From a virus (taxonomy: Duplodnaviria; Heunggongvirae; Uroviricota; Caudoviricetes): a DNA stretch of 42,242 nucleotides. Under the pieces are notes generated by a model. That model was not told the origin of the DNA, made no database searches, and was given only the letters and a program-made list of their open reading frames with translations. Location of the stretch: the IMG/VR virus record IMGVR_UViG_2657245570_000016; one strand, 5' to 3'. Position 1 is the first letter of the stretch; every line of letters begins with the position of its first letter. A program made the position numbers and the translations under genes. Of the stretch, positions 2,072 to 41,674 are shown piece by piece.

Positions 2072-3462
2072 GCTATACCTCTCTTTTTCATGGCATCGAG
2101 CAGGATGTCCTGCACTGTTCGTTTTGAGTTGCGCCGCTCCATCACCATTTCATCCATAGTGTCGGCAGCAATAATGTGGTGAATAAATACCGGACGATTG
2201 TGTCCGGCCTGTATCTGCCTGGTGGGGCCGATACGTTCAATAATTTGCTGATATTGCTCCAGGTCCCACCAGTGTGAGAAAAATACCAGTATATTTCCGC
2301 CGTCCTGCATGTTCAGGCCGTGGCCCGCGCTGGCTGGGTGTGCAAAGAGAACAGGAATCTTTCCGGAATTCCAGTCGCGCAGTGTCTGTGGATCCTGGTC
2401 GAGGTGACGACCGCGAGGGAATGCTTTAAGCAAGCGTTCAAGATCGTGTTTCCAGTGATAAGCAACCAGCACAGGTGCGCCAGCTGCTTCGGTCAGTATG
2501 CTGTCCAGCGCCTGTAGTTTGGTGTCATGCAGTTCTGACCAACTTCCGGTGTCATCTGTGTATACTGCGCCGCTGGCGATTTGCAGACACTTCAGTGTCT
2601 TTGCCGCGGCGTTCGGTGCTTCGATGCCTTCGCCATTCAGCTCGAGGAACATTTCCTTTTCCATTTCACGATACTGCTGACGGGCCTTCGGTGGCATATC
2701 CACGCGGATTACGTTATGGATGGGGTCTTTGATATCGAACCAGTCGGCCGCATCCAGCGAGAGGGTTACATCGGCTAACGCTCGCTGTATTTCACCCTGT
2801 GAGTGAGCAAAAGGCTCCAGTTTGGTCCAGCTCTGCCCCGGAAACTGTATCGAGTTGAACCAGCGTGAGGTAAACGCGCCGTAAGTGCGCCCGAGACGTT
2901 GCCCCTGGTCCACAAACCACGATTGTCCCCACAAATCTACCAGGCCGTTCGGTGCTGGCGTACCGGTGAGATTTATCCAGCGCCGGACATACTTATGCGC
3001 CACTTTGCCCAGCGCCGCCGCGCGCTTACCACCACCGCGCAGCCGGAAGGATTTTAGCCGGGTGCTTTCATCTGGAATGACAGTACCGAACGGCCATCGT
3101 TCTCCCAATTCTTCAATCAGCCAGACAAGGTTATCGTAGTTGATGGTGAACACGCTTGCGTTGCTGTTCGTCAGCGCCATAGAGCGCGCTTTGGCATTAC
3201 CAATAATTGGCTGCACCTCGATATTGCGCAAATGTCCCCACTTCAGTGCTTCATCCGGCCATGTGCTGGCAGCCACGCGCAGCGGCGCGAGGACCAGTGC
3301 GGGGCATGTTTCTGCCCCTGCCATAAAGAGATCTTCCAGCGCAGTGAGCGTTGCCACGGTTTTACCCATTCCCATCCCCGCCCAGATGTTGCCGCGCAGG
3401 GTTTCGGTTTCGTGGTTGATAATGAGAACTTGGTAGGGGCGAGGTATATATTTTGGGGGCAT
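2068..3462 (-). CDS. SNF2-family ATP-dependent helicase
   Basis: Motifs in the translation: Q-motif (PYQ), Walker A GMGMGKT, DExx-like VIPDESTRLK, motif III LTGTPAPN. Confidence 0.85.
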   Translation of the reverse strand: MPPKYIPRPYQVLIINHETETLRGNIWAGMGMGKTVATLTALEDLFMAGAETCPALVLAPLRVAASTWPDEALKWGHLRNIEVQPIIGNAKARSMALTNSNASVFTINYDNLVWLIEELGERWPFGTVIPDESTRLKSFRLRGGGKRAAALGKVAHKYVRRWINLTGTPAPNGLVDLWGQSWFVDQGQRLGRTYGAFTSRWFNSIQFPGQSWTKLEPFAHSQGEIQRALADVTLSLDAADWFDIKDPIHNVIRVDMPPKARQQYREMEKEMFLELNGEGIEAPNAAAKTLKCLQIASGAVYTDDTGSWSELHDTKLQALDSILTEAAGAPVLVAYHWKHDLERLLKAFPRGRHLDQDPQTLRDWNSGKIPVLFAHPASAGHGLNMQDGGNILVFFSHWWDLEQYQQIIERIGPTRQIQAGHNRPVFIHHIIAADTMDEMVMERRNSKRTVQDILLDAMKKRGIA

Positions 3463-3524
3463 ATAATATGGCTCCTAAACAACAAAAGGCCAATTTAGAC
3501 CTTTTGTTGTTTTAAAAATGTTAT

Positions 3525-4442
3525 TTATAATAGTGCTGTTACTATTGCATCTTTAAAAATATTTTCTTCTTCATTTATTAAAGGTGATGACAGATGAATA
3601 ATTACTTCTTTTCCTGTCAATACTATTTGCTCGACTTGAAATCCTGCGTTGTGTAGTCTTTGGCGTAACTTTTCTAGTGCTGATTTTGATATACTAAATC
3701 CTTCACTCCTTATAGTATAACTGGCAACTCCATTTTTAATAATATCTACAGAGTTGTCAATTTCCTGCTGCGAGTAATTTTTCGGTGAGTCGAAAAATCT
3801 GGATTTTGTCGTTGCTGTTGCCCTAAGAGATATCAATAATGATTTGATATCTTTAATCTCAGATGCCAGATACTCAGTTTCTGATACTTCTTTCTGGTCT
3901 AGTTGTGCAACTTTGAAAGTGCCAAAATGTTTGAGGAATGTTGTGTATTCAGGATCAGTTACTGACTTTAAATATGTTTCTTTTATCTTGCTCGCAAGTC
4001 TTTCTTTGAATAAATTGATTGATTGGTATCTTAAATCCGAAGGGTACTCTAAATGTTCAATTGATGAAATGTCAAAGCTATAAGGAGTGCGCTCGTCCTT
4101 AATAATTACGGTCGGTTTGTCAAATGCGAGACGCATTCCTAATTCAAACATTACATTAGCGTTTCGAGCACTTATATCGCAAACAACTATGGGGTTTTCA
4201 TAAAGATTTTGAACAATTCGTTTTTGTATTACTGCAACATCATCATCTGAACTTACCAAATTTGCCTTGAATCCGGCATCATTTGATGCTTCACAAATAA
4301 TGTCATGAACATTTCTCCAATGTCCAGTGGGATAACCTTCTATGTCCGCAATTGGCATAATAATGCCGCATATATGAGGTGGCATATTTTTGTTGTCTTT
4401 TACATCATCTTGGTTTATTTCTTTCGTTTGTTGCTTAGCCAT
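3525..4442 (-). CDS. Hypothetical protein: N-terminal TIR-like / nucleoside 2-deoxyribosyltransferase-like domain plus C-terminal domain of unknown function (about 170 aa)
   Basis: N-terminal ICGIIMPIA...IVVCDISARNANVMFELGMRLAFDKPTVIIKD...SFDISSIEHLEY resembles the conserved core (R.xNV.FE.G ... pSD..G..Y) of TIR-like/deoxyribosyltransferase-like folds. Visibly AT-rich relative to neighbours; good AGGAG Shine-Dalgarno before the ATG at 4440-4442. Confidence 0.5.
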   Translation of the reverse strand: MAKQQTKEINQDDVKDNKNMPPHICGIIMPIADIEGYPTGHWRNVHDIICEASNDAGFKANLVSSDDDVAVIQKRIVQNLYENPIVVCDISARNANVMFELGMRLAFDKPTVIIKDERTPYSFDISSIEHLEYPSDLRYQSINLFKERLASKIKETYLKSVTDPEYTTFLKHFGTFKVAQLDQKEVSETEYLASEIKDIKSLLISLRATATTKSRFFDSPKNYSQQEIDNSVDIIKNGVASYTIRSEGFSISKSALEKLRQRLHNAGFQVEQIVLTGKEVIIHLSSPLINEEENIFKDAIVTALL

Positions 4443-4457
4443 AGCTTACACAGACTC

Positions 4458-4742
4458 CTATTGTAATTTTTTGCCTAATATACATGAAAGCTCCTTACTA
4501 TCCAGTACTACCACGGTAAAGCCCAGTTTTCGCAGACGTTCATGCTCGCGCAACTGATCAGGTCGTGGTGGTTTGCCTGGTGCTTTGCATTCGACAAAGA
4601 CGATGCGACCGCCGGGTAGCAGAACAATGCGATCTGGTACCGAGCGGAGACCGGGAGATACGAACTTAAAGGCAACCCCGCCAGCCTTTTTTACTTCAGC
4701 GACGAGGTGCTTTTCGATTAGGTTTTCACGTTCATAGGCCAT
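4458..4742 (-). CDS. VRR-NUC domain nuclease (PD-(D/E)XK fold)
   Basis: VPDRIVLLPGGRIVFVECKAPGKPPRPDQL contains the PD...E-C-K catalytic arrangement of VRR-NUC proteins; commonly found beside SNF2 helicases in phages. Confidence 0.8.
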   Translation of the reverse strand: MAYERENLIEKHLVAEVKKAGGVAFKFVSPGLRSVPDRIVLLPGGRIVFVECKAPGKPPRPDQLREHERLRKLGFTVVVLDSKELSCILGKKLQ

Positions 4743-4936
4743 TAGCTTTCGCCTTCCTGCTTTTTGCGTTTCTTCATGCAGATAGCGCAGTTCTCAGGAT
4801 GGTCATGCCATTCGTCAATCCTGATACCTGTGAACATCCATTTTCCGCATAGTGATATGGCTTCCCCCGAATTAAAGAAATGTGCTTTTTTCGACAGGGC
4901 GGGGAACCCCCAACCTTTATTATCGATATTAGACAT
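4742..4936 (-). CDS. Small putative zinc-binding phage protein
   Basis: 64 aa with C-x12-H-x-H-x5-C-x2-C spacing (LCGKW...WHDHPENCAIC) and a basic tail; its stop overlaps the VRR-NUC start (TAATG on the minus strand). Confidence 0.45.
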   Translation of the reverse strand: MSNIDNKGWGFPALSKKAHFFNSGEAISLCGKWMFTGIRIDEWHDHPENCAICMKKRKKQEGES

Positions 4937-5120
4937 CGTCCACCTCCTTACGCTTTTCGCGCATGTTCTGCATCAGACAAAAATCAAACCGACGTTCGCT
5001 TTGGCCCAGACCTGCATCGCCCGGTCGTACCCGCTGGACTGTTCAAGGCGCAAAGCCTCCCGTGCAGTCCGGTAATAAAGCGGACTGTCCCGGTATTTAA
5101 ATGACATAGGGTTTTTATTC

Positions 5121-5171: not shown

Positions 5172-5933
5172 TTACGAGGAAGCGTTAGCTATTTGAGCTT
5201 GTGTAAATTCGAAACCAGAATTTTGTAACCGTTGCACTAGACGAGGAACTGTTTCACGTACATGGTCGTTGAAATTCAGATACAAAATCCCGTTAGCATC
5301 AGAAGGCTGTTCTAGGTGCTGTTTCTGAAGGATTGCTACATTGCTGCGCCCTAAGGACGAAAGAAGCATACCCATCTCGAGTACAACGTTCTGTCTTGCG
5401 CGGGGTTGGATTTCTGCTTCACCGGCGCGCTTTGAGTATCCCATATCATCAGGTGTCAAAAGAACAATCCCGAAACGAGTAGCAGTTTGTCCTTGCCCAA
5501 TTTCACGTTCAAGCTCTTCAATAATGGTGAGTCCAGTCCCTCCCGTATTCTGCAAAATGAAATGGTCTGGTAATCCAAGTTTATGAAGGATTAGCTCAAG
5601 TTGTTCCTTTGCAGTATGGTCATGGCCGTGAACAATGAATATCTTTTTGGGAAGCTCAGATGGCTGTTCTACGGCTAGTGGTGTTGCCGTGGGGGGCGTT
5701 CCTAAATGGGACATTATTGCAGTTTCAACATTGGGACGTTCTTGAGGGTTCCCTTGAAACTGAATGGTCCGGGTGGTGTAAAGGTTAACAATTACGCCAT
5801 TCGTTAAACGATAGCAGTCATAAGTCTCACGCTGTTCGTGGGAAAAATTGGTGAACCCACACTCCCTCAAAAAGTCAGGAAAAGATTCTCTCGGGTATGG
5901 ATAGTTGATCGGCATTTCAGTTAGTTCCTGCAT
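5172..5933 (-). CDS. Hypothetical protein: N-terminal domain of unknown function (about 90 aa) plus C-terminal TIR-like domain (Cap12/PycTIR-type predicted nucleotide-binding fold)
   Basis: C-terminal KKIFIVHGHDH...FGIVLLTPDD...RARQNVVLEMGMLLSSLGRSNVAILQK...PSDANGILYL matches my recollection of the TIR-like consensus (FIvHG ... TPDD ... RaRqNVvfElG ... pSD..G..y). GC content looks lower than the flanking pol gene. AAAGGA Shine-Dalgarno before the ATG. Confidence 0.55.
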   Translation of the reverse strand: MQELTEMPINYPYPRESFPDFLRECGFTNFSHEQRETYDCYRLTNGVIVNLYTTRTIQFQGNPQERPNVETAIMSHLGTPPTATPLAVEQPSELPKKIFIVHGHDHTAKEQLELILHKLGLPDHFILQNTGGTGLTIIEELEREIGQGQTATRFGIVLLTPDDMGYSKRAGEAEIQPRARQNVVLEMGMLLSSLGRSNVAILQKQHLEQPSDANGILYLNFNDHVRETVPRLVQRLQNSGFEFTQAQIANASS

Positions 5934-8107: not shown

Positions 8108-8737
8108 ATGCATATGATCCAATACTTGATTGACCATACAGAGCATCTGGAGAAAATAGCTGGATATATTTTTTCATGTTTGATTGTTATGGGAGTCTGG
8201 ATAAGAAAGATCATTTTTAATTATAAGTATAAAGAGCCTAAATATGTCAAGAAGTTAATTTTATATTTAATTAAGTATGAACGTTATCTGGATAAGGAGG
8301 ATAAGAAAGCCATAGAAAAAAGAATAAATGATAAAATTATTCGTGATGCGCTGAAATTGCAATCCTCTTATAACCGAAGAGATGTTATTTACATTTGCAA
8401 TAGATTAGAAAAAAGACAGTATATAAATCAGTTGATTAAGCTTCAGAATTATATAGAGAAAGATAACGGAGTGTTTTTTATTAATGTTGATTTTTCAGGT
8501 TTTTTATTTATTATTAGTCGTCTGTTTTCCTTTCTGTGTTTTGTGCTGTTTACCCTTTTTTCTATTATCTGCATTATTTCCATAGGGCAAAATGAAGGCC
8601 TTTTAAATTATCTTGTGTATATGGTTATGATAATAGTTTTAGAGACTGTTGGTTTTTGGATGTATGATACTTTCCCGTCTAAGAAAAAGATCTGTGAACT
8701 AAATAAAGAATTGAGAAAGATTAAGATTCCTGAGTGA
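8108..8737 (+). CDS. Hypothetical integral membrane protein (AT-rich moron on the opposite strand)
   Basis: Strongly AT-rich coding sequence. Predicted N-terminal transmembrane helix (IAGYIFSCLIVMGVWI), a Lys/Tyr-rich soluble middle, and two C-terminal hydrophobic helices. Convergent with the flanking early genes. Confidence 0.55.
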   Translation: MHMIQYLIDHTEHLEKIAGYIFSCLIVMGVWIRKIIFNYKYKEPKYVKKLILYLIKYERYLDKEDKKAIEKRINDKIIRDALKLQSSYNRRDVIYICNRLEKRQYINQLIKLQNYIEKDNGVFFINVDFSGFLFIISRLFSFLCFVLFTLFSIICIISIGQNEGLLNYLVYMVMIIVLETVGFWMYDTFPSKKKICELNKELRKIKIPE

Positions 8738-10657: not shown

Positions 10658-11560
10658 TTAACCCTCCAGTGCTTTTTCAGCCAGGGTGATTACTTCAGCG
10701 AGATTTTCATCCGTTACTTCACCAAGTTTCCTGGCTCCCTGTTTTTCCAGAATTGCAATAGCTTCTGCCCGGTAACCCCCTTTTGCTAACTGGAGGATCA
10801 ACCCTTCAGCTTGTTTGCGTAGTGCCGCGAAATCAATTGTATGGTCATCTTTGGCGTCATTATTCTGGCTGGAATTTGCTGTGTCTCTGCGTGCAAATTC
10901 TTCCTGCAGCTGAAGGTACTCAACACGGTTGGTCTCGATATGGCCTTTTTTCAGCATCTCGTTCAACTTGCGTAAGGTGTGGAGTTCACTGGCTGCTGTG
11001 CCGGATACATTTTTGACGTAAAACGGCCCCGTGCGTTCTCCATCTTTGTTACTGGCCTTTTTCGGCTTAACTTCATCACGCCCATCCGCAGGTGCATCAA
11101 GTAGCTGCTCGGCAAAAGCACGTCGCTCGCCGATGGTTGGCAGGTCGTCCCAGAACTTAAGGATGTTACGGGACAGGTCCAGGAGAGCAGGTTTAAGCAG
11201 CGCCCTGGCTCGTTTGACGCCCTGCAATGCGCTGTCGAGAGCATCAATCTGAACTACTCGTTTATCGCCTTCAGCATCACGGTAGGCAACAGCACGTTGC
11301 AGCATGTCTTCTGTGATAGGGGTGGCTACTGGGTAGAAACCAGCCAGTGCGATAACGTCGCTGAACTCCAGATCATCCAGTGTCATTGCCGCTGACATAT
11401 TTTCAGTTTCAGTTGCTGTATCCCGACATTCCTGCACTCGTGAAATCGTGTCAGGATGCATAACAATACCTGATGCCATTGTGCGGATAAGACGTTCAAG
11501 CAGCGCATTATGTTGTGCCAGAAGTTGATTATTAAGTTCGAGACTGGTTTCTAAACTCAT
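10658..11560 (-). CDS. Hypothetical phage early protein
   Basis: 300-aa ORF in the early-left operon, 3 nt from the downstream gene; no recognisable motif. Confidence 0.5.
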
Positions 11561-11706
11561 ACTGTGGTCCTCGCTACAAGGAGAATGAAAGTGATGATCA
11601 GACCGAGCGCAGTGGCAACGGCCAGACCGGTCATCAAATCGAAGTTTTTACGGCGATAACGGAGAACATCGCGCCCCGTCAGTCGATAGAGGTGTTCAGG
11701 TTTCAT
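11557..11706 (-). CDS. Small hydrophobic protein (49 aa), first ORF of the early-left operon
   Basis: Hand translation [49 protein letters not shown]; its stop overlaps the start of the next gene (ATGA). Below the ORF-track length cutoff. Confidence 0.35.
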   Translation of the reverse strand: MKPEHLYRLTGRDVLRYRRKNFDLMTGLAVATALGLIITFILLVARTTV

Positions 11707-11761
11707 CGGTTGTATTCCTTTTTTCATATCGGGGAGCGCGCTGTTGCGAGTGCGCTTTCAG

Positions 11762-11791
11762 ACATAAAAAAGCCCGTCATTTGCGGCGGGC
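11762..11791 (-). terminator. Terminator-like hairpin in the early-left leader (minus-strand sense)
   Basis: Minus-strand RNA GCCCG-(10-nt loop)-CGGGC followed by UUUUUUAU; lies between the presumed leftward promoter region and the first early ORF. Confidence 0.4.
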
Positions 11792-11930
11792 AAAGACTAC
11801 ACACAGCAATTACATGGATATCATCGAGTGCCTGCTTTTAACCACATCAGGCGAGGTGGTTCTCCTTGTACCCCTACAGTGAGAAATCGTCTAATATCTC
11901 TTCACCCCTACAGTTTGAGAGAGATTAGAT

Positions 11931-12500
11931 ATGTCTGAAGAAAAAGGAATTCTTTCCCGGATAACTGAATCGTTATCCGGCGTGGGAGGAGCAATTAAAG
12001 GCGCGGTTGGAGCAGCAAGAGAGATTCAGAATCTGACTGTCGACTATGCAGTTAAAGAGAAGACGCACACCTTACTCGATAAGCTAATGGATGTTCAGAT
12101 GCAGCAAATGTCGCTTCAGGAGCTGCTGATTGCGGCTAAGGAGAAAATTGTTGAACTGGAAAATGAGAAAGTAAAGCAAGAGAACTGGGCCGCTGAAGCG
12201 GCGAGCTATGAACTTTACCAGCCTATGCGGGGTACTCTGGTCTATCGCAGCAAGCTTTCTGCAGATACTGACCAATCTCCGGTTTATATTTGTCCCAATT
12301 GCTACGAGCAAAAGAGAAAATCTATATTGCAAGCGGAAGGTCTGGTTATTAAGCCAGGCCTTGGGCGAGCCGTTAATATGGTTTGTTCGCACTGTAGGGC
12401 TTCCTATCTGTTCAACCGAAATGCTTTAGAGGCCAGACTGCCTGCTGAAGATGAAAATCCGGGGAAGGCAATCACGGATTACGATCCTTACAACCAGTAA
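11931..12500 (+). CDS. Hypothetical protein with N-terminal coiled-coil and C-terminal CxxC...CxxC zinc ribbon
   Basis: 189 aa; heptad-like QMQQMSLQELLIAAKEKIVELENEKVKQ region; CPNC ... CSHC pairs; own ATG; transcribed opposite to the early-left operon and convergent with cI. Confidence 0.55.
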   Translation: MSEEKGILSRITESLSGVGGAIKGAVGAAREIQNLTVDYAVKEKTHTLLDKLMDVQMQQMSLQELLIAAKEKIVELENEKVKQENWAAEAASYELYQPMRGTLVYRSKLSADTDQSPVYICPNCYEQKRKSILQAEGLVIKPGLGRAVNMVCSHCRASYLFNRNALEARLPAEDENPGKAITDYDPYNQ

Positions 12501-12807
12501 TTTCTTTAAGCATGGGTACCCTTCCGGCCACCCAGAGTTAAAGGAACTAAGCGCCCCATCGTCGGGGCGTTTCAACTTGCGTGACTTATCAGTTCGTCGC
12601 GGTGTTGTCCTCTACGCTTACCGTACGCATACGGACTCGGCGCTTACCTCGATCCCATCGGGTGCCATTTCATTTTGCCAGGAGTACTGCGGCTTACCTG
12701 TCACGCGGTTCAGTTTGTTAAAGAGCTGGTATTAAAAAACGCATTAATTATGCGGTATCGTATTTATATGCGTTATGGGATTTTGCGTCAATACGAAAAT
12801 GAATTAT

Positions 12808-40452: not shown

Positions 40453-40509
40453 AAATGCAGAAATAACGAGCAAATGGCATCATTCCTGCTTTTGTCAGAG
40501 GGATCCACT

Positions 40510-40824
40510 ATGCTTATTGGCTATGTACGTGTGTCAACAAATGACCAGAACACAGATCTACAACGTAATGCGCTGAACTGTGCAGGATGCGAGCTGTTTT
40601 TTGAAGACAAGATAAGCGGTACAAAGTCCGAAAGGCCGGGACTGAAAAAACTGCTCAGGACATTATCGGCAGGTGACACTCTGGTTGTCTGGAAGCTGGA
40701 TCGGCTGGGGCGCAGTGTGCGGCATCTTGTCGTGCTGGTGGAGGAGTTGTGCGAACAAGGTGTTAATTTTAGTAGTTATGTTATTACAGGTGGGGGATTT
40801 CTCCCCCTTATGCAGATTTTCTAG
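40510..40824 (+). pseudogene. Serine DNA invertase (Hin/Gin/Pin/Cin family), truncated after about 96 codons
   Basis: MLIGYVRVSTNDQNTDLQRNAL...DTLVVWKLDRLGRSV closely matches the Pin/Hin N-terminal catalytic domain; after EQGVNF the sequence diverges (SSYVITGGGFLPLMQIF*) into AT-rich DNA. Typical family members are about 185-190 aa. Confidence 0.75.
40787..40802. other. GC hairpin at the junction between the truncated invertase and AT-rich DNA
   Basis: GGGGGA-TTTC-TCCCCC perfect 6-bp stem, about 27 nt downstream of the stop of the minus-strand 281-aa gene. Confidence 0.4.
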
Positions 40825-40828
40825 TTAA

Positions 40829-41674
40829 CTATTGGCGAAGTGGCCATATTTTTCTGTTTTTTAAAAAACTATCTTCAACTATATAACTGCAACAATGTTC
40901 ACTAAGGCCATAAAAACTAATTATTCCATATTTATGAGAAGCTATATCAGACAGTTCTGCTAATACTGTGGCAAGCCAACGAGCGATGCTAAGAGAATAG
41001 AATCTTCCCCACTTTTGAACAATGGTATTTTGTCCAGTACGGATGGAGGCTGATATAAGGTCTTGCATAATGTTGGTACTTTCATTCATATACATGACCG
41101 TTGTATACGGTGAAAGAGTGGCATTGATAAACCTAGCATTTTCTTCAACACGTCTTTGTTCAACTGTATAATAATAATGTTTTTCAAGGATACTCTCGGC
41201 TACTTCTCCCCACCATTTATTAATAGGTTCATTATTGGTTAAATTGGGGCTGCTTAATGAGGAGAAATTTGCGTAACGTCCCCGTCGGGCATCAGCAAAG
41301 GAATCTAAACATTCAAGTATTTTGTAGGTAATTTTATGTGTAGGACGTGAATATCTCAGAGATAGTTGCATTTTTTTAGAAATACTATCAACCTCGTTGG
41401 TTAATTCAATGAGCTTATGTCCAAATTTTCTTACAATATTCTCATCAGGCATTTTCCCTTTGTGTTCAATGGCATAGTGTGCAACAAGTATTAGTTTAGC
41501 AAGTCTCTCAAAACCTACAGAAAGCCCAAAAAATGCTGTGTAATATTCACCTATTTTGTCTGCATAATTGGCTTTACCTATGGCTGTTGCCCCAGAACCA
41601 ATGAGCTGTGTAACTAAAGATGCTTCTCGGCCCAGAGCGTGCCATGCTGGAATATCCCAGGGATTTTTATTCAC
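40829..41674 (-). CDS. Hypothetical protein (281 aa), AT-rich cargo gene
   Basis: Long ORF in visibly AT-rich DNA; no motif I can assign confidently. Confidence 0.5.
   Translation of the reverse strand: MNKNPWDIPAWHALGREASLVTQLIGSGATAIGKANYADKIGEYYTAFFGLSVGFERLAKLILVAHYAIEHKGKMPDENIVRKFGHKLIELTNEVDSISKKMQLSLRYSRPTHKITYKILECLDSFADARRGRYANFSSLSSPNLTNNEPINKWWGEVAESILEKHYYYTVEQRRVEENARFINATLSPYTTVMYMNESTNIMQDLISASIRTGQNTIVQKWGRFYSLSIARWLATVLAELSDIASHKYGIISFYGLSEHCCSYIVEDSFLKNRKIWPLRQ

What the first reader, a model, noticed from the sequence alone, without database searches (positions are those of the whole stretch)
3525..4442. 305-aa protein: N-terminal TIR-like / deoxyribosyltransferase-like domain fused to an unassigned 170-aa C-terminal domain, very AT-rich
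The N-terminal core IVVCDISARNANVMFELGMRLAFDKPTVII resembles the catalytic-Glu region of nucleoside 2-deoxyribosyltransferase and TIR-like folds. The C-terminal half has no motif I recognise. The coding sequence is markedly AT-rich compared with the adjacent helicase and VRR-NUC genes, suggesting recent acquisition. The deoxyribosyltransferase-like fold also raises the possibility of a nucleoside or DNA base-exchange function.
Basis: partly seen in the sequence, partly recalled or inferred. Interest (0 to 1): 0.7.

Follow-up and report, generated by a model that had tools for sequence, protein, structure and literature searches.

The report
Orphan Thoeris-like effector gene in prophage
This AT-rich prophage gene belongs to a large, unnamed family of single-gene proteins that join the likely nucleotide-cleaving effector domain of a recently described bacterial immune system (type VIII Thoeris) to a small, fast-evolving tail, so it is probably a new stand-alone anti-phage gene.

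Summary
Window 3525-4442 (-) is a real 305-aa gene with 34% GC against 49% for the window, and GC3 of 26% against 55-59% in the flanking genes.

It sits in a swappable cargo slot between the VRR-NUC and SNF2 helicase genes of an E. coli prophage integrated at yfhL.

The N-terminal about 200 aa form a TIR/deoxyribosyltransferase-like (TDS-class) Rossmann-type domain. [quoted passage not shown]

Profile comparison shows that this module is homologous to the N-terminal "CMP hydrolase" effector domain of ThsI, the effector of type VIII Thoeris (hhalign 98.9%, E 4e-17).

The target lacks ThsI's TPR-S domain and has no ThsB TIR partner. It ends instead in a hypervariable ACT-like domain of about 75 aa.

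The family has at least 900 strong 50%-identity clusters across many phyla and no Pfam or PADLOC model. No conserved neighbour was found. In 73 of 73 loci the gene is more AT-rich than its flanks.

Members occur as prophage cargo, in lysogeny modules and as an integron cassette.

Best reading, inferred and not shown: a stand-alone abortive-infection N-glycosidase. The DNA base-exchange idea has no support.

The parts
3525..4442 (-). Coding sequence of the 305-aa protein (WP_001551510.1, annotated 'hypothetical protein'); stop codon at 3525-3527
   Evidence: ORF list. RefSeq annotation. 100% identical in phages vB_EcoM-689R2 and vB_EcoM-611R5 (99% in 606R2).
4377..4442 (-). Residues 1-22: variable, charged N-terminal tail predicted to be disordered
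   Evidence: pLDDT below 50 for residues 1-19. Poorly aligned and variable in length in A1.
3948..4376 (-). Residues 23-165: TIR/DrHyd-like Rossmann-type core with five beta-alpha units; presumed N-glycosidase effector domain
4113..4190 (-). Residues 85-110: strand 3 plus the following loop and helix. Signature: V-C-D89-I-S-x-x-N94-x-N96-V-M-F-E100-L-G-x-R104-L-A-F-D-K-P. This is the predicted active site.
   Evidence: D89, N96, E100, L101, G102 and R104 are invariant in 79 sequences that include Gram-positive phage homologues. The same motif is invariant in ThsI-like proteins as D-I-S-T-x-N-x-N-A-x-Y-E-L-G-x-R. It aligns with NVVLEMGM of the neighbouring PF10137 TIR.
3813..3947 (-). Residues 166-210: conserved extension (DPxYTTFLKHFGxF) plus a long helix; homology to ThsI continues through this stretch to about aa 204
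   Evidence: hhalign of A4 against A6 aligns query residues 17-204. Helix at 188-210.
3756..3812 (-). Residues 211-229: disordered, non-conserved linker
   Evidence: pLDDT below 50 for residues 211-226. 23% mean pairwise identity over residues 187-229.
3528..3755 (-). Residues 230-305: hypervariable C-terminal domain (beta-beta-alpha-beta-beta-alpha) with an ACT-like / permuted ferredoxin-like fold; presumed sensor, regulatory or oligomerisation domain
4455..4459 (-). AGGAG Shine-Dalgarno sequence, overlapping the VRR-NUC stop codon, 12 nt upstream of the ATG
   Evidence: Read directly from the sequence.
3472..3518 (-). Strong hairpin (14-bp stem) just after the stop codon and directly before the helicase ribosome-binding site; part of the cargo module; possibly a weak terminator or an RNA-stabilising stem
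   Evidence: RNA fold -21 kcal/mol, z = -4.4, with 0 of 200 shuffles as stable. The consensus terminator scan did not call it.
3445..4494 (.). Exchangeable cargo module of the prophage. Homology to sister prophages breaks inside the 5' end of the SNF2 gene and the 3' end of the VRR-NUC gene.
   Evidence: blastn breakpoints at 3426-3444 and 4476-4495 against L002, L003 and L004. Alternative cargo in the slot: BstA, DUF6338, a 265-aa hypothetical protein, cytosine methyltransferases.

Best explanation
The gene encodes a stand-alone, single-protein conflict (anti-phage) module carried as cargo by a temperate phage.

Its N-terminal about 200 residues are a TIR/DrHyd-class N-glycosidase domain of the same family as the effector domain of ThsI (type VIII Thoeris). 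I expect this domain to use the invariant Glu100, with Asp89, Asn94, Asn96 and Arg104, to cleave the N-glycosidic bond of an essential nucleotide. The substrate would be NAD+ or a (d)NMP or NTP, and cleavage would deplete it and stop phage replication by abortive infection or growth arrest.

In ThsI the effector is controlled by a TPR-S domain and by cADPR made by a partner TIR protein. Here that control is replaced by a helical stalk and a small, hypervariable ACT-like C-terminal domain. I propose that this domain keeps the enzyme inactive until it meets a phage-derived trigger, most likely a phage protein, and that activation involves oligomerisation.

Shown: gene reality, fold class, homology to ThsI's effector domain, absence of a partner gene, family-wide foreign base composition, and the rate contrast between the two domains.

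Inferred: enzymatic activity, substrate, defence phenotype, and the sensor role of the C-terminal domain.
For: Homology to ThsI:
- The family profile against ThsI-like TPR-S proteins gives hhalign 98.9%, E 3.6e-17 over 180 columns. Against a single such protein it gives 98.3%.
- phmmer with that protein hits all family members.
- Those TPR-S proteins are flanked or followed by ThsB_TIR genes.
- This matches type VIII Thoeris, described as a 'CMP hydrolase and TPR' effector plus ThsB. That system was shown experimentally to defend against T2 and T6 and to respond to cADPR (preprint 10.64898/2025.12.03.692087).

Enzyme-like domain:
- The active-site-type residues are invariant exactly where the TDS class has them.
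- Fold hits include Cap12 TIR, MilB, NDT and DNPH1.

Autonomy and mobility:
- There is no conserved neighbour or small ORF in 77 loci.
- One homologue is a single-gene cassette in a Vibrio superintegron.
- The gene is more AT-rich than its flanks in 73 of 73 loci, by 13 points on average.

Positions typical of genes expressed in the lysogen or carried as cargo:
- Between the CI repressor and the integrase in a P2-like element.
- On the integrase/repressor strand in Streptococcus phage Javan306.
- Directly after the integrase in Klebsiella phage 1 LV-2017.
- In the lambdoid nin region.
- Within 4 kb of the ends of viral contigs in 19 of 47 cases against 9.8 expected, P about 0.002.
- The same slot in sister prophages holds the known defence gene BstA.

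Domain contrast: the effector domain is conserved and the C-terminal domain hypervariable (71% against 12.6% identity; dN/dS 0.02 against 0.39).

Functional precedent: Swarozyc is a single protein with a TIR-like NADase, a stalk and an auxiliary domain that senses the phage portal protein (10.64898/2026.05.01.722283).
Against: - No experiment exists on any member of this family, and no paper mentions it.
- Even for ThsI the enzymatic activity is only hypothesised.
- Immediate neighbours in diverse genomes are mostly housekeeping genes. Defence, toxin-antitoxin and mobile-element hits among the two genes on either side are only modestly frequent, and the counts are not rigorous.
- In this window the gene lies on the same strand as the early replication genes, 15 nt after VRR-NUC, with no clear promoter of its own. 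Expression in the lysogen is therefore not established here.
- The C-terminal domain has dN/dS below 1, so positive selection is not demonstrated.
- Fold searches also return generic receiver-like and flavodoxin-like folds at similar scores.
Confidence: 0.45

Rival explanations
1. Orphan Thoeris effector working in trans. The protein is activated by a small nucleotide signal, such as a cADPR isomer, made by a TIR protein encoded elsewhere. That source could be the PF10137 TIR gene 730 bp upstream in this prophage or a host ThsB. The ACT-like C-terminal domain would be the ligand sensor.
For: ACT domains are classic small-ligand sensors (established knowledge), and the fold match is. The effector domain is shared with the signal-activated ThsI. 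A TIR gene lies in the same prophage and next to the closest homologue P0002. One family locus (L040) has a TIR_2 gene immediately downstream.
Against: A sensor for a conserved small ligand would not be expected to be hypervariable at 12.6% identity. The TIR gene and this gene occur independently: the TIR gene is found with other slot cargo, and the K. aerogenes homologue has no TIR gene. TIR neighbours are rare, about 1-2 among 77 loci. PF10137 TIRs are typically effectors rather than signal generators (established knowledge).
Confidence: 0.12
2. Anti-defence enzyme or sponge. The phage uses a ThsI-like domain without its sensor to hydrolyse or sequester TIR-derived immune signals such as cADPR, and so disarms host Thoeris systems.
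For: In this window the gene is co-oriented with early lytic replication genes. The DrHyd/ARC superfamily includes cADPR-metabolising enzymes (PMC9503650). Related lambdoid prophages carry anti-CBASS/anti-Thoeris Acb2/Tad1-type genes as cargo. 139 viral contigs encode relatives.
Against: The 77 analysed chromosomal loci lie mostly among housekeeping genes, with no conserved neighbouring family, and one homologue is an integron cassette. These are atypical settings for anti-defence genes. Several phage copies lie in lysogeny-expressed positions. A hypervariable C-terminal domain has no obvious role in a signal hydrolase.
Confidence: 0.1
3. Fused toxin-antitoxin or addiction module. The N-domain is a toxin held in check by the C-terminal domain, and the gene persists by stabilising mobile elements or as a selfish gene, with no specific sensing of phage.
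For: The gene is autonomous, always looks foreign by base composition, and is spread widely by horizontal transfer. Toxin-antitoxin genes (BrnA, Phd/YefM, Fic) recur among its neighbours.
Against: A cis-fused antitoxin cannot give post-segregational killing by the usual differential-stability route (inference). The cargo positions in prophages and the homology to an immune effector fit defence better.
Confidence: 0.1
4. One reading: a nucleoside or nucleotide deoxyribosyltransferase or hydrolase serving phage nucleotide metabolism or DNA base modification.
For: Sub-threshold PF05014 hits in many members. Foldseek hits to NDT and DNPH1. The gene sits among replication genes. Sister prophages carry the NDT-like DUF4406 in the neighbouring slot.
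Against: No accompanying modification or transglycosylase genes and no conserved partners. The gene is dispensable cargo, present in only 24 of the 159 E. coli genomes that carry related prophage sequence. The family is mostly non-viral. The hypervariable C-terminal domain would be left unexplained.
Confidence: 0.05
5. A non-catalytic receiver-like or flavodoxin-like regulatory domain. The fold hits to CheY-type receivers, KaiA and LacI-type domains would then reflect the true relationship.
Against: There is no acidic pair after strand 1. The 'KP' motif precedes strand 4 rather than following strand 5. The invariant residues follow the TDS pattern after strand 3. Sequence-profile links go to PF10137, PF05014 and ThsI, and never to Response_reg.
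Confidence: 0.03

Closest known systems
ThsI, the effector of type VIII Thoeris ('CMP hydrolase and TPR'; bioRxiv 10.64898/2025.12.03.692087)
   Same: The N-terminal about 190-200 residues are homologous (hhalign 98.9%, E 3.6e-17). The two share the invariant signature D-I-S-x-x-N-x-N-x-x-[FY]-E-L-G-x-R, the 'FD' motif and the conserved Tyr. Both are mobile and frequent in Pseudomonadota.
   Different: The target has no TPR-S domain and no adjacent ThsB TIR gene, so it has no evident cADPR signalling input. It has a helix, a linker and a hypervariable ACT-like domain of about 75 aa instead. It is about 300 aa long against about 410-430 aa.
Swarozyc / Evangelion (DUF4062 TIR-like NADase, single-protein defence; bioRxiv 10.64898/2026.05.01.722283 and 10.64898/2026.06.25.731849)
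   Same: The logic is the same: one protein with an N-terminal TIR/NDT-like domain carrying a catalytic Glu (E97 there, E100 here), a helical stalk, and a C-terminal auxiliary domain needed for sensing. Both are spread by horizontal transfer.
   Different: The domain family differs: no DUF4062 hit at E <= 1 or at E <= 0.1 in eight other family members. The auxiliary domain there is an HTH/winged-helix module that binds the portal protein; here it is a small ACT-like domain. No NADase activity has been shown here.
CAP12/Pycsar TIR effectors (Pfam PF10137), including the neighbouring PDC-S35 gene at 5172-5933
   Different: The Pfam score is below the gathering threshold (16.2 against 24.7 bits). 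Profile-profile similarity is weak (E 0.002, probability 14%). The strand-1 motif differs (C-G-I-I-M-P-I against F-I-V-H-G-H-D). There is no cyclic-nucleotide sensor domain.
Nucleoside 2-deoxyribosyltransferase / DNPH1 / MilB CMP hydrolase (DrHyd superfamily; Pfam clan CL0498)
   Different: Only sub-threshold Pfam similarity (13-17 bits against a 28.8-bit cut-off). The target has an extra conserved extension and a C-terminal domain, and it occurs as mobile cargo rather than in a metabolic context.
CapRel-type fused toxin-sensor defence proteins (recalled from the literature, not tested here)
   Same: A conserved N-terminal toxic enzyme, a hypervariable C-terminal sensor in the same polypeptide, and prophage carriage.
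   Different: Unrelated folds and chemistry (tRNA pyrophosphorylation against presumed N-glycosidase). The analogy is conceptual only.

Membership tests
TIR-DrHyd-SLOG (TDS) class of Rossmann-type domains (Aravind lab definition, PMC9503650) | [quoted passage not shown] | tested here: met
TIR-DrHyd-SLOG (TDS) class of Rossmann-type domains | [quoted passage not shown] | tested here: met
   D89, N96, E100, L101, G102 and R104 are invariant and N94 is conserved in at least 90% of 79 sequences from many phyla and from Gram-positive phages; all lie directly after strand 3, which spans residues 85-89.
TIR-DrHyd-SLOG (TDS) class of Rossmann-type domains | Hydrolysis or transglycosylation of an N-glycosidic bond (or nucleotide binding, in inactive versions) | not testable with these tools
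   Needs biochemistry.
Thoeris type VIII effector ThsI | N-terminal 'CMP hydrolase'-type effector domain | tested here: met
   hhalign of A4 against A6 gives 98.9%, E 3.6e-17. The comparator proteins combine this N-domain with TPR-S and have ThsB_TIR neighbours. Caveat: the comparators were identified as ThsI by architecture and by one ThsB similarity (26% identity, E 6e-12), not by the authors' own model.
Thoeris type VIII effector ThsI | C-terminal TPR (TPR-S, PF20308) domain | tested here: not met
   No TPR hit in the target. The C-terminal domain is about 75 aa and ACT-like.
Thoeris type VIII effector ThsI | Operon partner ThsB (a TIR protein that generates the signal) | tested here: not met
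   The flanking genes are VRR-NUC and the SNF2 helicase. No conserved neighbour in 77 loci, and no ThsB hit by phmmer. The only TIR gene nearby is a PF10137 type three genes away, and it varies independently.
Thoeris type VIII effector ThsI | Activation by canonical cADPR | not testable with these tools
   Needs ligand-feeding or binding assays.
Pfam PF10137 (CAP12/Pycsar TIR) | Score at or above the gathering threshold (24.7 bits) | tested here: not met
   16.2 bits, E 0.011. hhalign against a PF10137 alignment gives E 0.002 and probability 13.7%.
Pfam PF05014 (nucleoside 2-deoxyribosyltransferase) | Score at or above the gathering threshold (28.8 bits) | tested here: not met
   13.2 bits in the target and 13.9-16.8 bits in eight other members and relatives. 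The hits recur over overlapping profile positions (about 31-116 of 117, most within 42-104) but are always sub-threshold.
DUF4062 / Swarozyc-Evangelion | DUF4062 domain | tested here: not met
   No DUF4062 hit at E <= 1 in the target or at E <= 0.1 in eight other family members.
ACT domain (C-terminal domain) | beta-alpha-beta-beta-alpha-beta ferredoxin-like fold that forms ligand-binding dimers | tested here: inconclusive
CheY-like receiver domain | Acidic pair after strand 1, phospho-acceptor Asp after strand 3, and Lys-Pro after strand 5 | tested here: not met
   Strand 1 is followed by M-P-I, and K109-P110 precede strand 4. No Response_reg hit.
Known or candidate defence systems in PADLOC-DB v2.0.0 | A match to a system-specific model | tested here: not met
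   The only hit is partial, to a generic CBASS 'Effector TIR' model (E 1.1e-6, residues 54-134).

The most novel reading that the evidence does not exclude
This is the founding example of a widespread, unnamed single-gene immune system. The Thoeris type VIII effector domain has been freed from TIR/cADPR signalling and coupled directly to a fast-evolving ACT-like receptor that recognises phage proteins. On this reading it kills or arrests the cell by hydrolysing a nucleotide other than NAD+, for example CMP, a dNMP or an NTP. That would show how signalling immune pathways and autonomous sensor-effector proteins exchange modules. It would also give the first biochemical handle on the ThsI effector.
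Probability: 0.3. Interest if true: 0.75.

Novelty: new variant of a known kind. Interest (0 to 1): 0.6.

Why it matters
Defence-system catalogues are still incomplete. This family has no Pfam, NCBIfam or PADLOC model and no solved structure, and it is annotated only as 'hypothetical protein' or, wrongly, as 'RNA helicase'.

It is large. 909 clusters at 50% identity match at E < 1e-30, and 335 relatives were found in a collection holding one genome per species, spanning many phyla.

Linking it to the ThsI effector gives an immediate, cheap experimental programme: plaque assays, an E100 mutant, and nucleotide profiling.

If confirmed, it would add a new single-gene system and reveal the still-unknown chemistry of the type VIII Thoeris effector. 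It would also illustrate how an immune effector swaps its sensor: TPR-S plus a TIR partner in one case, a hypervariable ACT-like tail in the other.

For prophage biology, it defines a cargo hotspot between VRR-NUC and the SNF2 helicase in a common family of E. coli, Klebsiella and Enterobacter prophages.

Tried and rejected
- Sequence search of the PDB with the protein and with the family profile found nothing meaningful.
- NCBIfam gave no hit. PHROGs gave only families of unknown function, phrog_3634 and phrog_10872.
- Literature searches by phage name, WP accession and 'PDC-S35' found no papers.
- I looked for a conserved partner gene and for a small adjacent ORF such as an antitoxin in 77 diverse loci and found none.
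- Defence-island enrichment, from Pfam and PADLOC scans of the two genes on either side (276 proteins in all), was only modest and heterogeneous, so I do not use it as strong evidence.
- phmmer with a handful of integrase seeds found an integrase within 3 kb in only 10 of 79 viral loci, which is uninformative.
- hhalign against the neighbouring PF10137 TIR family was weak (E 0.002, probability 14%), so I do not claim membership.
- Foldseek against the PDB did not separate TIR/NDT folds from receiver-like folds. The afdb50 library was unavailable.
- A positive-selection test by pairwise dN/dS gave a C-domain omega of 0.39, which is below 1. More distant pairs were saturated.
- The consensus promoter and terminator scan found no more than chance would give in the region.
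- I considered and rejected the receiver-domain reading, the polymorphic-toxin reading (no variable immunity gene downstream) and the DNA-modification reading.
Full report
**1. The observation**

The window holds an ORF at 3525..4442 on the minus strand that encodes 305 aa.

The gene is real.
- It has more than 4,466 homologues in the 90%-identity protein collection.
- An exhaustive HMMER search of 50%-identity representatives finds 4,823 clusters at E < 1e-3 and 909 at E < 1e-30.
- The exact protein occurs on at least 1,000 contigs.
- The N-terminal domain is under very strong purifying selection, with dN/dS 0.019 against the closest syntenic homologue.

The base composition is as described.
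- GC is 34.4% against 49.2% for the window (z = -3.3).
- GC3 is 25.8% against 59% in the SNF2 helicase gene, 57% in polA and 44% in VRR-NUC.

**2. Genomic setting**

The window is a prophage integrated next to yfhL. The aligned region is 100% identical to the induced E. coli phages vB_EcoM-689R2 and vB_EcoM-611R5, and 99.9% identical to vB_EcoM-606R2.

Related prophage sequence occurs in 159 of 5,426 complete E. coli genomes. Only 24 of these carry this gene, and all copies are at least 99% identical.

Homology to sister prophages breaks at about 3426-3444, inside the 5' end of the helicase gene, and at about 4476-4495, inside the 3' end of VRR-NUC. The gene therefore sits in an exchangeable cargo module of about 1 kb.

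Sister prophages fill this slot with other cargo:
- a BstA C-terminal-domain protein (BstA is a known abortive-infection defence gene)
- DUF6338 plus a small ORF
- a 265-aa hypothetical protein
- cytosine methyltransferases
- Rha/Arc regulators
- nothing.

Close homologues (69-89% identity) occupy the same slot in prophages of Klebsiella aerogenes and Enterobacter and in an unassigned metagenomic contig.

The gene follows VRR-NUC by 15 nt and has an AGGAG ribosome-binding site. A strong hairpin (-21 kcal/mol, z = -4.4) follows it, just before the helicase ribosome-binding site. No convincing promoter of its own was found.

**3. Anatomy of the protein**

AlphaFold2 with a 64-sequence alignment gives the following layout.

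| Residues | Feature |
|---|---|
| 1-22 | disordered tail |
| 23-162 | five-unit beta-alpha Rossmann-type domain |
| 163-186 | conserved but poorly modelled stretch |
| 188-210 | long helix |
| 211-229 | disordered linker |
| 230-305 | compact beta-beta-alpha-beta-beta-alpha domain |

Modelled on its own, the C-terminal domain reaches pLDDT 91.

Conservation is sharply bimodal. Mean pairwise identity is 71% for residues 24-186, 23% for residues 187-229 and 12.6% for the C-terminal domain. Against the closest homologue, dN/dS is 0.019, 0.18 and 0.39 for the same three regions.

Across 77 sequences from Pseudomonadota, Bacteroidota, Acidobacteriota, Verrucomicrobiota, Planctomycetota, Desulfobacterota and Nitrospinota, 56 positions are at least 95% conserved. 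Those that also survive in Gram-positive phage homologues of about 31% identity are D89, N94, N96, E100, L101, G102, R104, A106, P110, F123, D124 and Y133.

**4. What the N-domain is**

No curated model covers it.
- Pfam gives only sub-threshold hits to PF10137 (CAP12/Pycsar TIR, 16 bits) and PF05014 (nucleoside deoxyribosyltransferase, 13 bits).
- The same two families recur over the same profile region in eight other members and relatives.
- A PADLOC CBASS 'Effector TIR' model hits at E 1e-6.

Fold searches place it in the right class but do not discriminate.
- Foldseek is equally non-discriminating. It returns NDT, DNPH1 and TcpB TIR among KaiA and PhoP receivers.

What discriminates is the placement of the invariant residues. 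[quoted passage not shown]

I rejected a receiver-domain reading. There is no acidic pair after strand 1, and the KP motif is in the wrong position.

**5. The key link: ThsI**

A tblastn search of plasmids found distant relatives (26% identity) annotated as TPR proteins. One of them, on an Acinetobacter conjugative plasmid, has this architecture:
- an N-terminal domain homologous to the target
- a TPR-S domain (PF20308)
- a ThsB_TIR gene on each side
- a surrounding island with BrnTA, a PIN-like gene and a restriction gene.

Its N-domain hits every member of the target family by phmmer (E 1e-13 to 1e-6). Profile-profile comparison gives 98.3% against that single protein. Against an alignment of 35 such proteins it gives 98.9%, E 3.6e-17 over 180 columns, covering query residues 17-204.

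In a Klebsiella plasmid-like contig and in a Pseudomonas chromosome, these proteins are each followed by a ThsB_TIR gene.

This two-gene architecture matches type VIII Thoeris from a December 2025 preprint (10.64898/2025.12.03.692087).
- The ThsB protein makes canonical cADPR on infection.
- The effector ThsI is described as 'CMP hydrolase and TPR'.
- The systems from Yersinia enterocolitica and from a Pseudomonas scaffold protect E. coli against T6 and T2.
- The authors hypothesise that ThsI manipulates the nucleotide pool, but this has not been shown.

One Acinetobacter ThsB is 26% identical (E 6e-12) to the Yersinia type VIII ThsB TIR.

The target's N-terminal module is therefore a ThsI-type effector domain. 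I identified the comparators as ThsI by architecture, not with the authors' own model.

**6. What differs from ThsI**

The target has no TPR-S domain and no ThsB partner.

In 77 diverse loci, no neighbouring gene family is conserved beyond generic ABC ATPases and sensor kinases. There is also no conserved small ORF.

**7. Ecology of the family**

In 73 of 73 loci with enough flanking sequence, the gene is more AT-rich than its surroundings. The mean difference is 13 points and the largest is 31. This also helps to explain 55-66% identity across phyla.

Settings in which members were found:
- a single-gene cassette in a Vibrio parahaemolyticus superintegron that also holds a BstA_C cassette
- the edge of a small integrase-bearing element in Pseudomonas
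- the nin region of lambdoid Klebsiella prophages
- directly after the integrase in Klebsiella phage 1 LV-2017
- the integrase/repressor strand of Streptococcus phage Javan306
- between the CI repressor and the integrase of a P2-like element in Pantoea, which is a position expressed in the lysogen.

139 IMG/VR contigs encode relatives. In contigs of at least 25 kb, the gene lies within 4 kb of a contig end in 19 of 47 cases against 9.8 expected (P about 0.002).

Immediate neighbours in non-phage genomes are mostly housekeeping genes, with a modest sprinkling of toxin-antitoxin, integrase, transposase and defence-model hits. I treat this as weak evidence.

**8. Mechanism (inferred)**

The N-domain is the only enzyme-like part of the protein, both in ThsI and here. 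It is therefore the effector: an N-glycosidase using E100.

The substrate is unknown. NAD+ fits TIR and Cap12. A nucleotide monophosphate fits MilB and DNPH1 and the ThsI hypothesis.

Control must come from the stalk and the hypervariable C-terminal domain. The best functional precedent is Swarozyc, a single-protein DUF4062 TIR-like NADase. Its C-terminal auxiliary domain binds the phage portal protein and switches on NAD+ depletion (10.64898/2026.05.01.722283). The target is not DUF4062.

The rivals are set out above with the tests that would separate them: an orphan Thoeris effector working in trans, an anti-Thoeris enzyme, an addiction module, and nucleotide or DNA modification.

**9. Verdict**

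The domain boundaries need correcting, and the base-exchange idea has no support.

The gene is a new architectural variant built on a recently described immune effector domain, in a large family that is so far unnamed. Function has not been tested. I give the stand-alone defence reading a confidence of about 0.45.

Noticed in passing
window 5172-5933 (-): A second TIR-type cargo gene lies 730 bp upstream. It is a 253-aa protein with a PF10137 CAP12/Pycsar TIR domain (E 3e-31) and it matches the PADLOC candidate system PDC-S35 (E 1e-108). It has more than 2,700 homologues of about 250 aa. It is followed by a terminator-like hairpin at 5149-5131. It occupies a second variable slot, which holds DUF4406 (NDT-like) or nothing in sister prophages.
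   Followed up: partly
window 8108-8737 (+): A very AT-rich ORF (28.7% GC) of 209 aa lies on the opposite strand between polA and the DUF2815 gene. It is lysine-rich with hydrophobic C-terminal segments. It matches phrog_10579 (unknown function) and has no Pfam or PADLOC hit. It looks like another moron (extra cargo gene).
   Followed up: partly
window 40829-41674 (-): An AT-rich 281-aa ORF (region GC about 36%) lies at the far end of the prophage, next to a truncated resolvase/invertase gene (40474-40824, PF00239). It has no Pfam hit. It contains an R-x4-H motif (RKFGH) reminiscent of HEPN domains. It may be further defence-type cargo.
   Followed up: partly
window about 3445-4494, with L002, L003 and L004: The junction between VRR-NUC and the SNF2 helicase is a recombination hotspot for cargo. 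Among the 159 E. coli genomes with related prophage sequence, the slot holds BstA-C, DUF6338, a 265-aa hypothetical protein, one or two DNA methyltransferases, Rha/Arc regulators, or nothing. The breakpoints lie inside the ends of the two conserved genes.
   Followed up: yes
window about 4929-5107 (-): RefSeq annotates a frameshifted ANR-family transcriptional regulator pseudogene here, between the 64-aa ORF (4742-4936) and the TIR gene. It is intact in some sister prophages, for example L003.
   Followed up: no
L100 (Acinetobacter baumannii plasmid NZ_CP103340.1), 4591-6806: A three-gene variant of the apparent type VIII Thoeris system: ThsB_TIR, then the ThsI-like protein (N-domain plus TPR-S), then a second and divergent ThsB_TIR. 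It lies on a conjugative plasmid beside BrnTA, a PIN-like gene and an AlwI restriction enzyme gene.
   Followed up: partly
L040 (Desulfuromonadaceae MAG), 11012-12520: One family member is followed 145 bp downstream, on the same strand, by a 502-aa protein with a TIR_2 domain. This may be a rare paired version of the ACT-type family.
   Followed up: no
L005-L008 (Klebsiella lambdoid prophages): The same prophages that carry a family member in the nin region also encode an Acb2/Tad1-hairpin protein (PF24729, an anti-CBASS/anti-Thoeris sponge family) near the lysis genes, and a DUF6414 gene next to the repressor.
   Followed up: no
family-wide annotation (P0047, P0057, P0086, P0100): Several members are named 'RNA helicase' in NCBI and UniRef. 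Nothing in the sequence or the model supports a helicase, so the name appears to be a propagated annotation error.
   Followed up: partly
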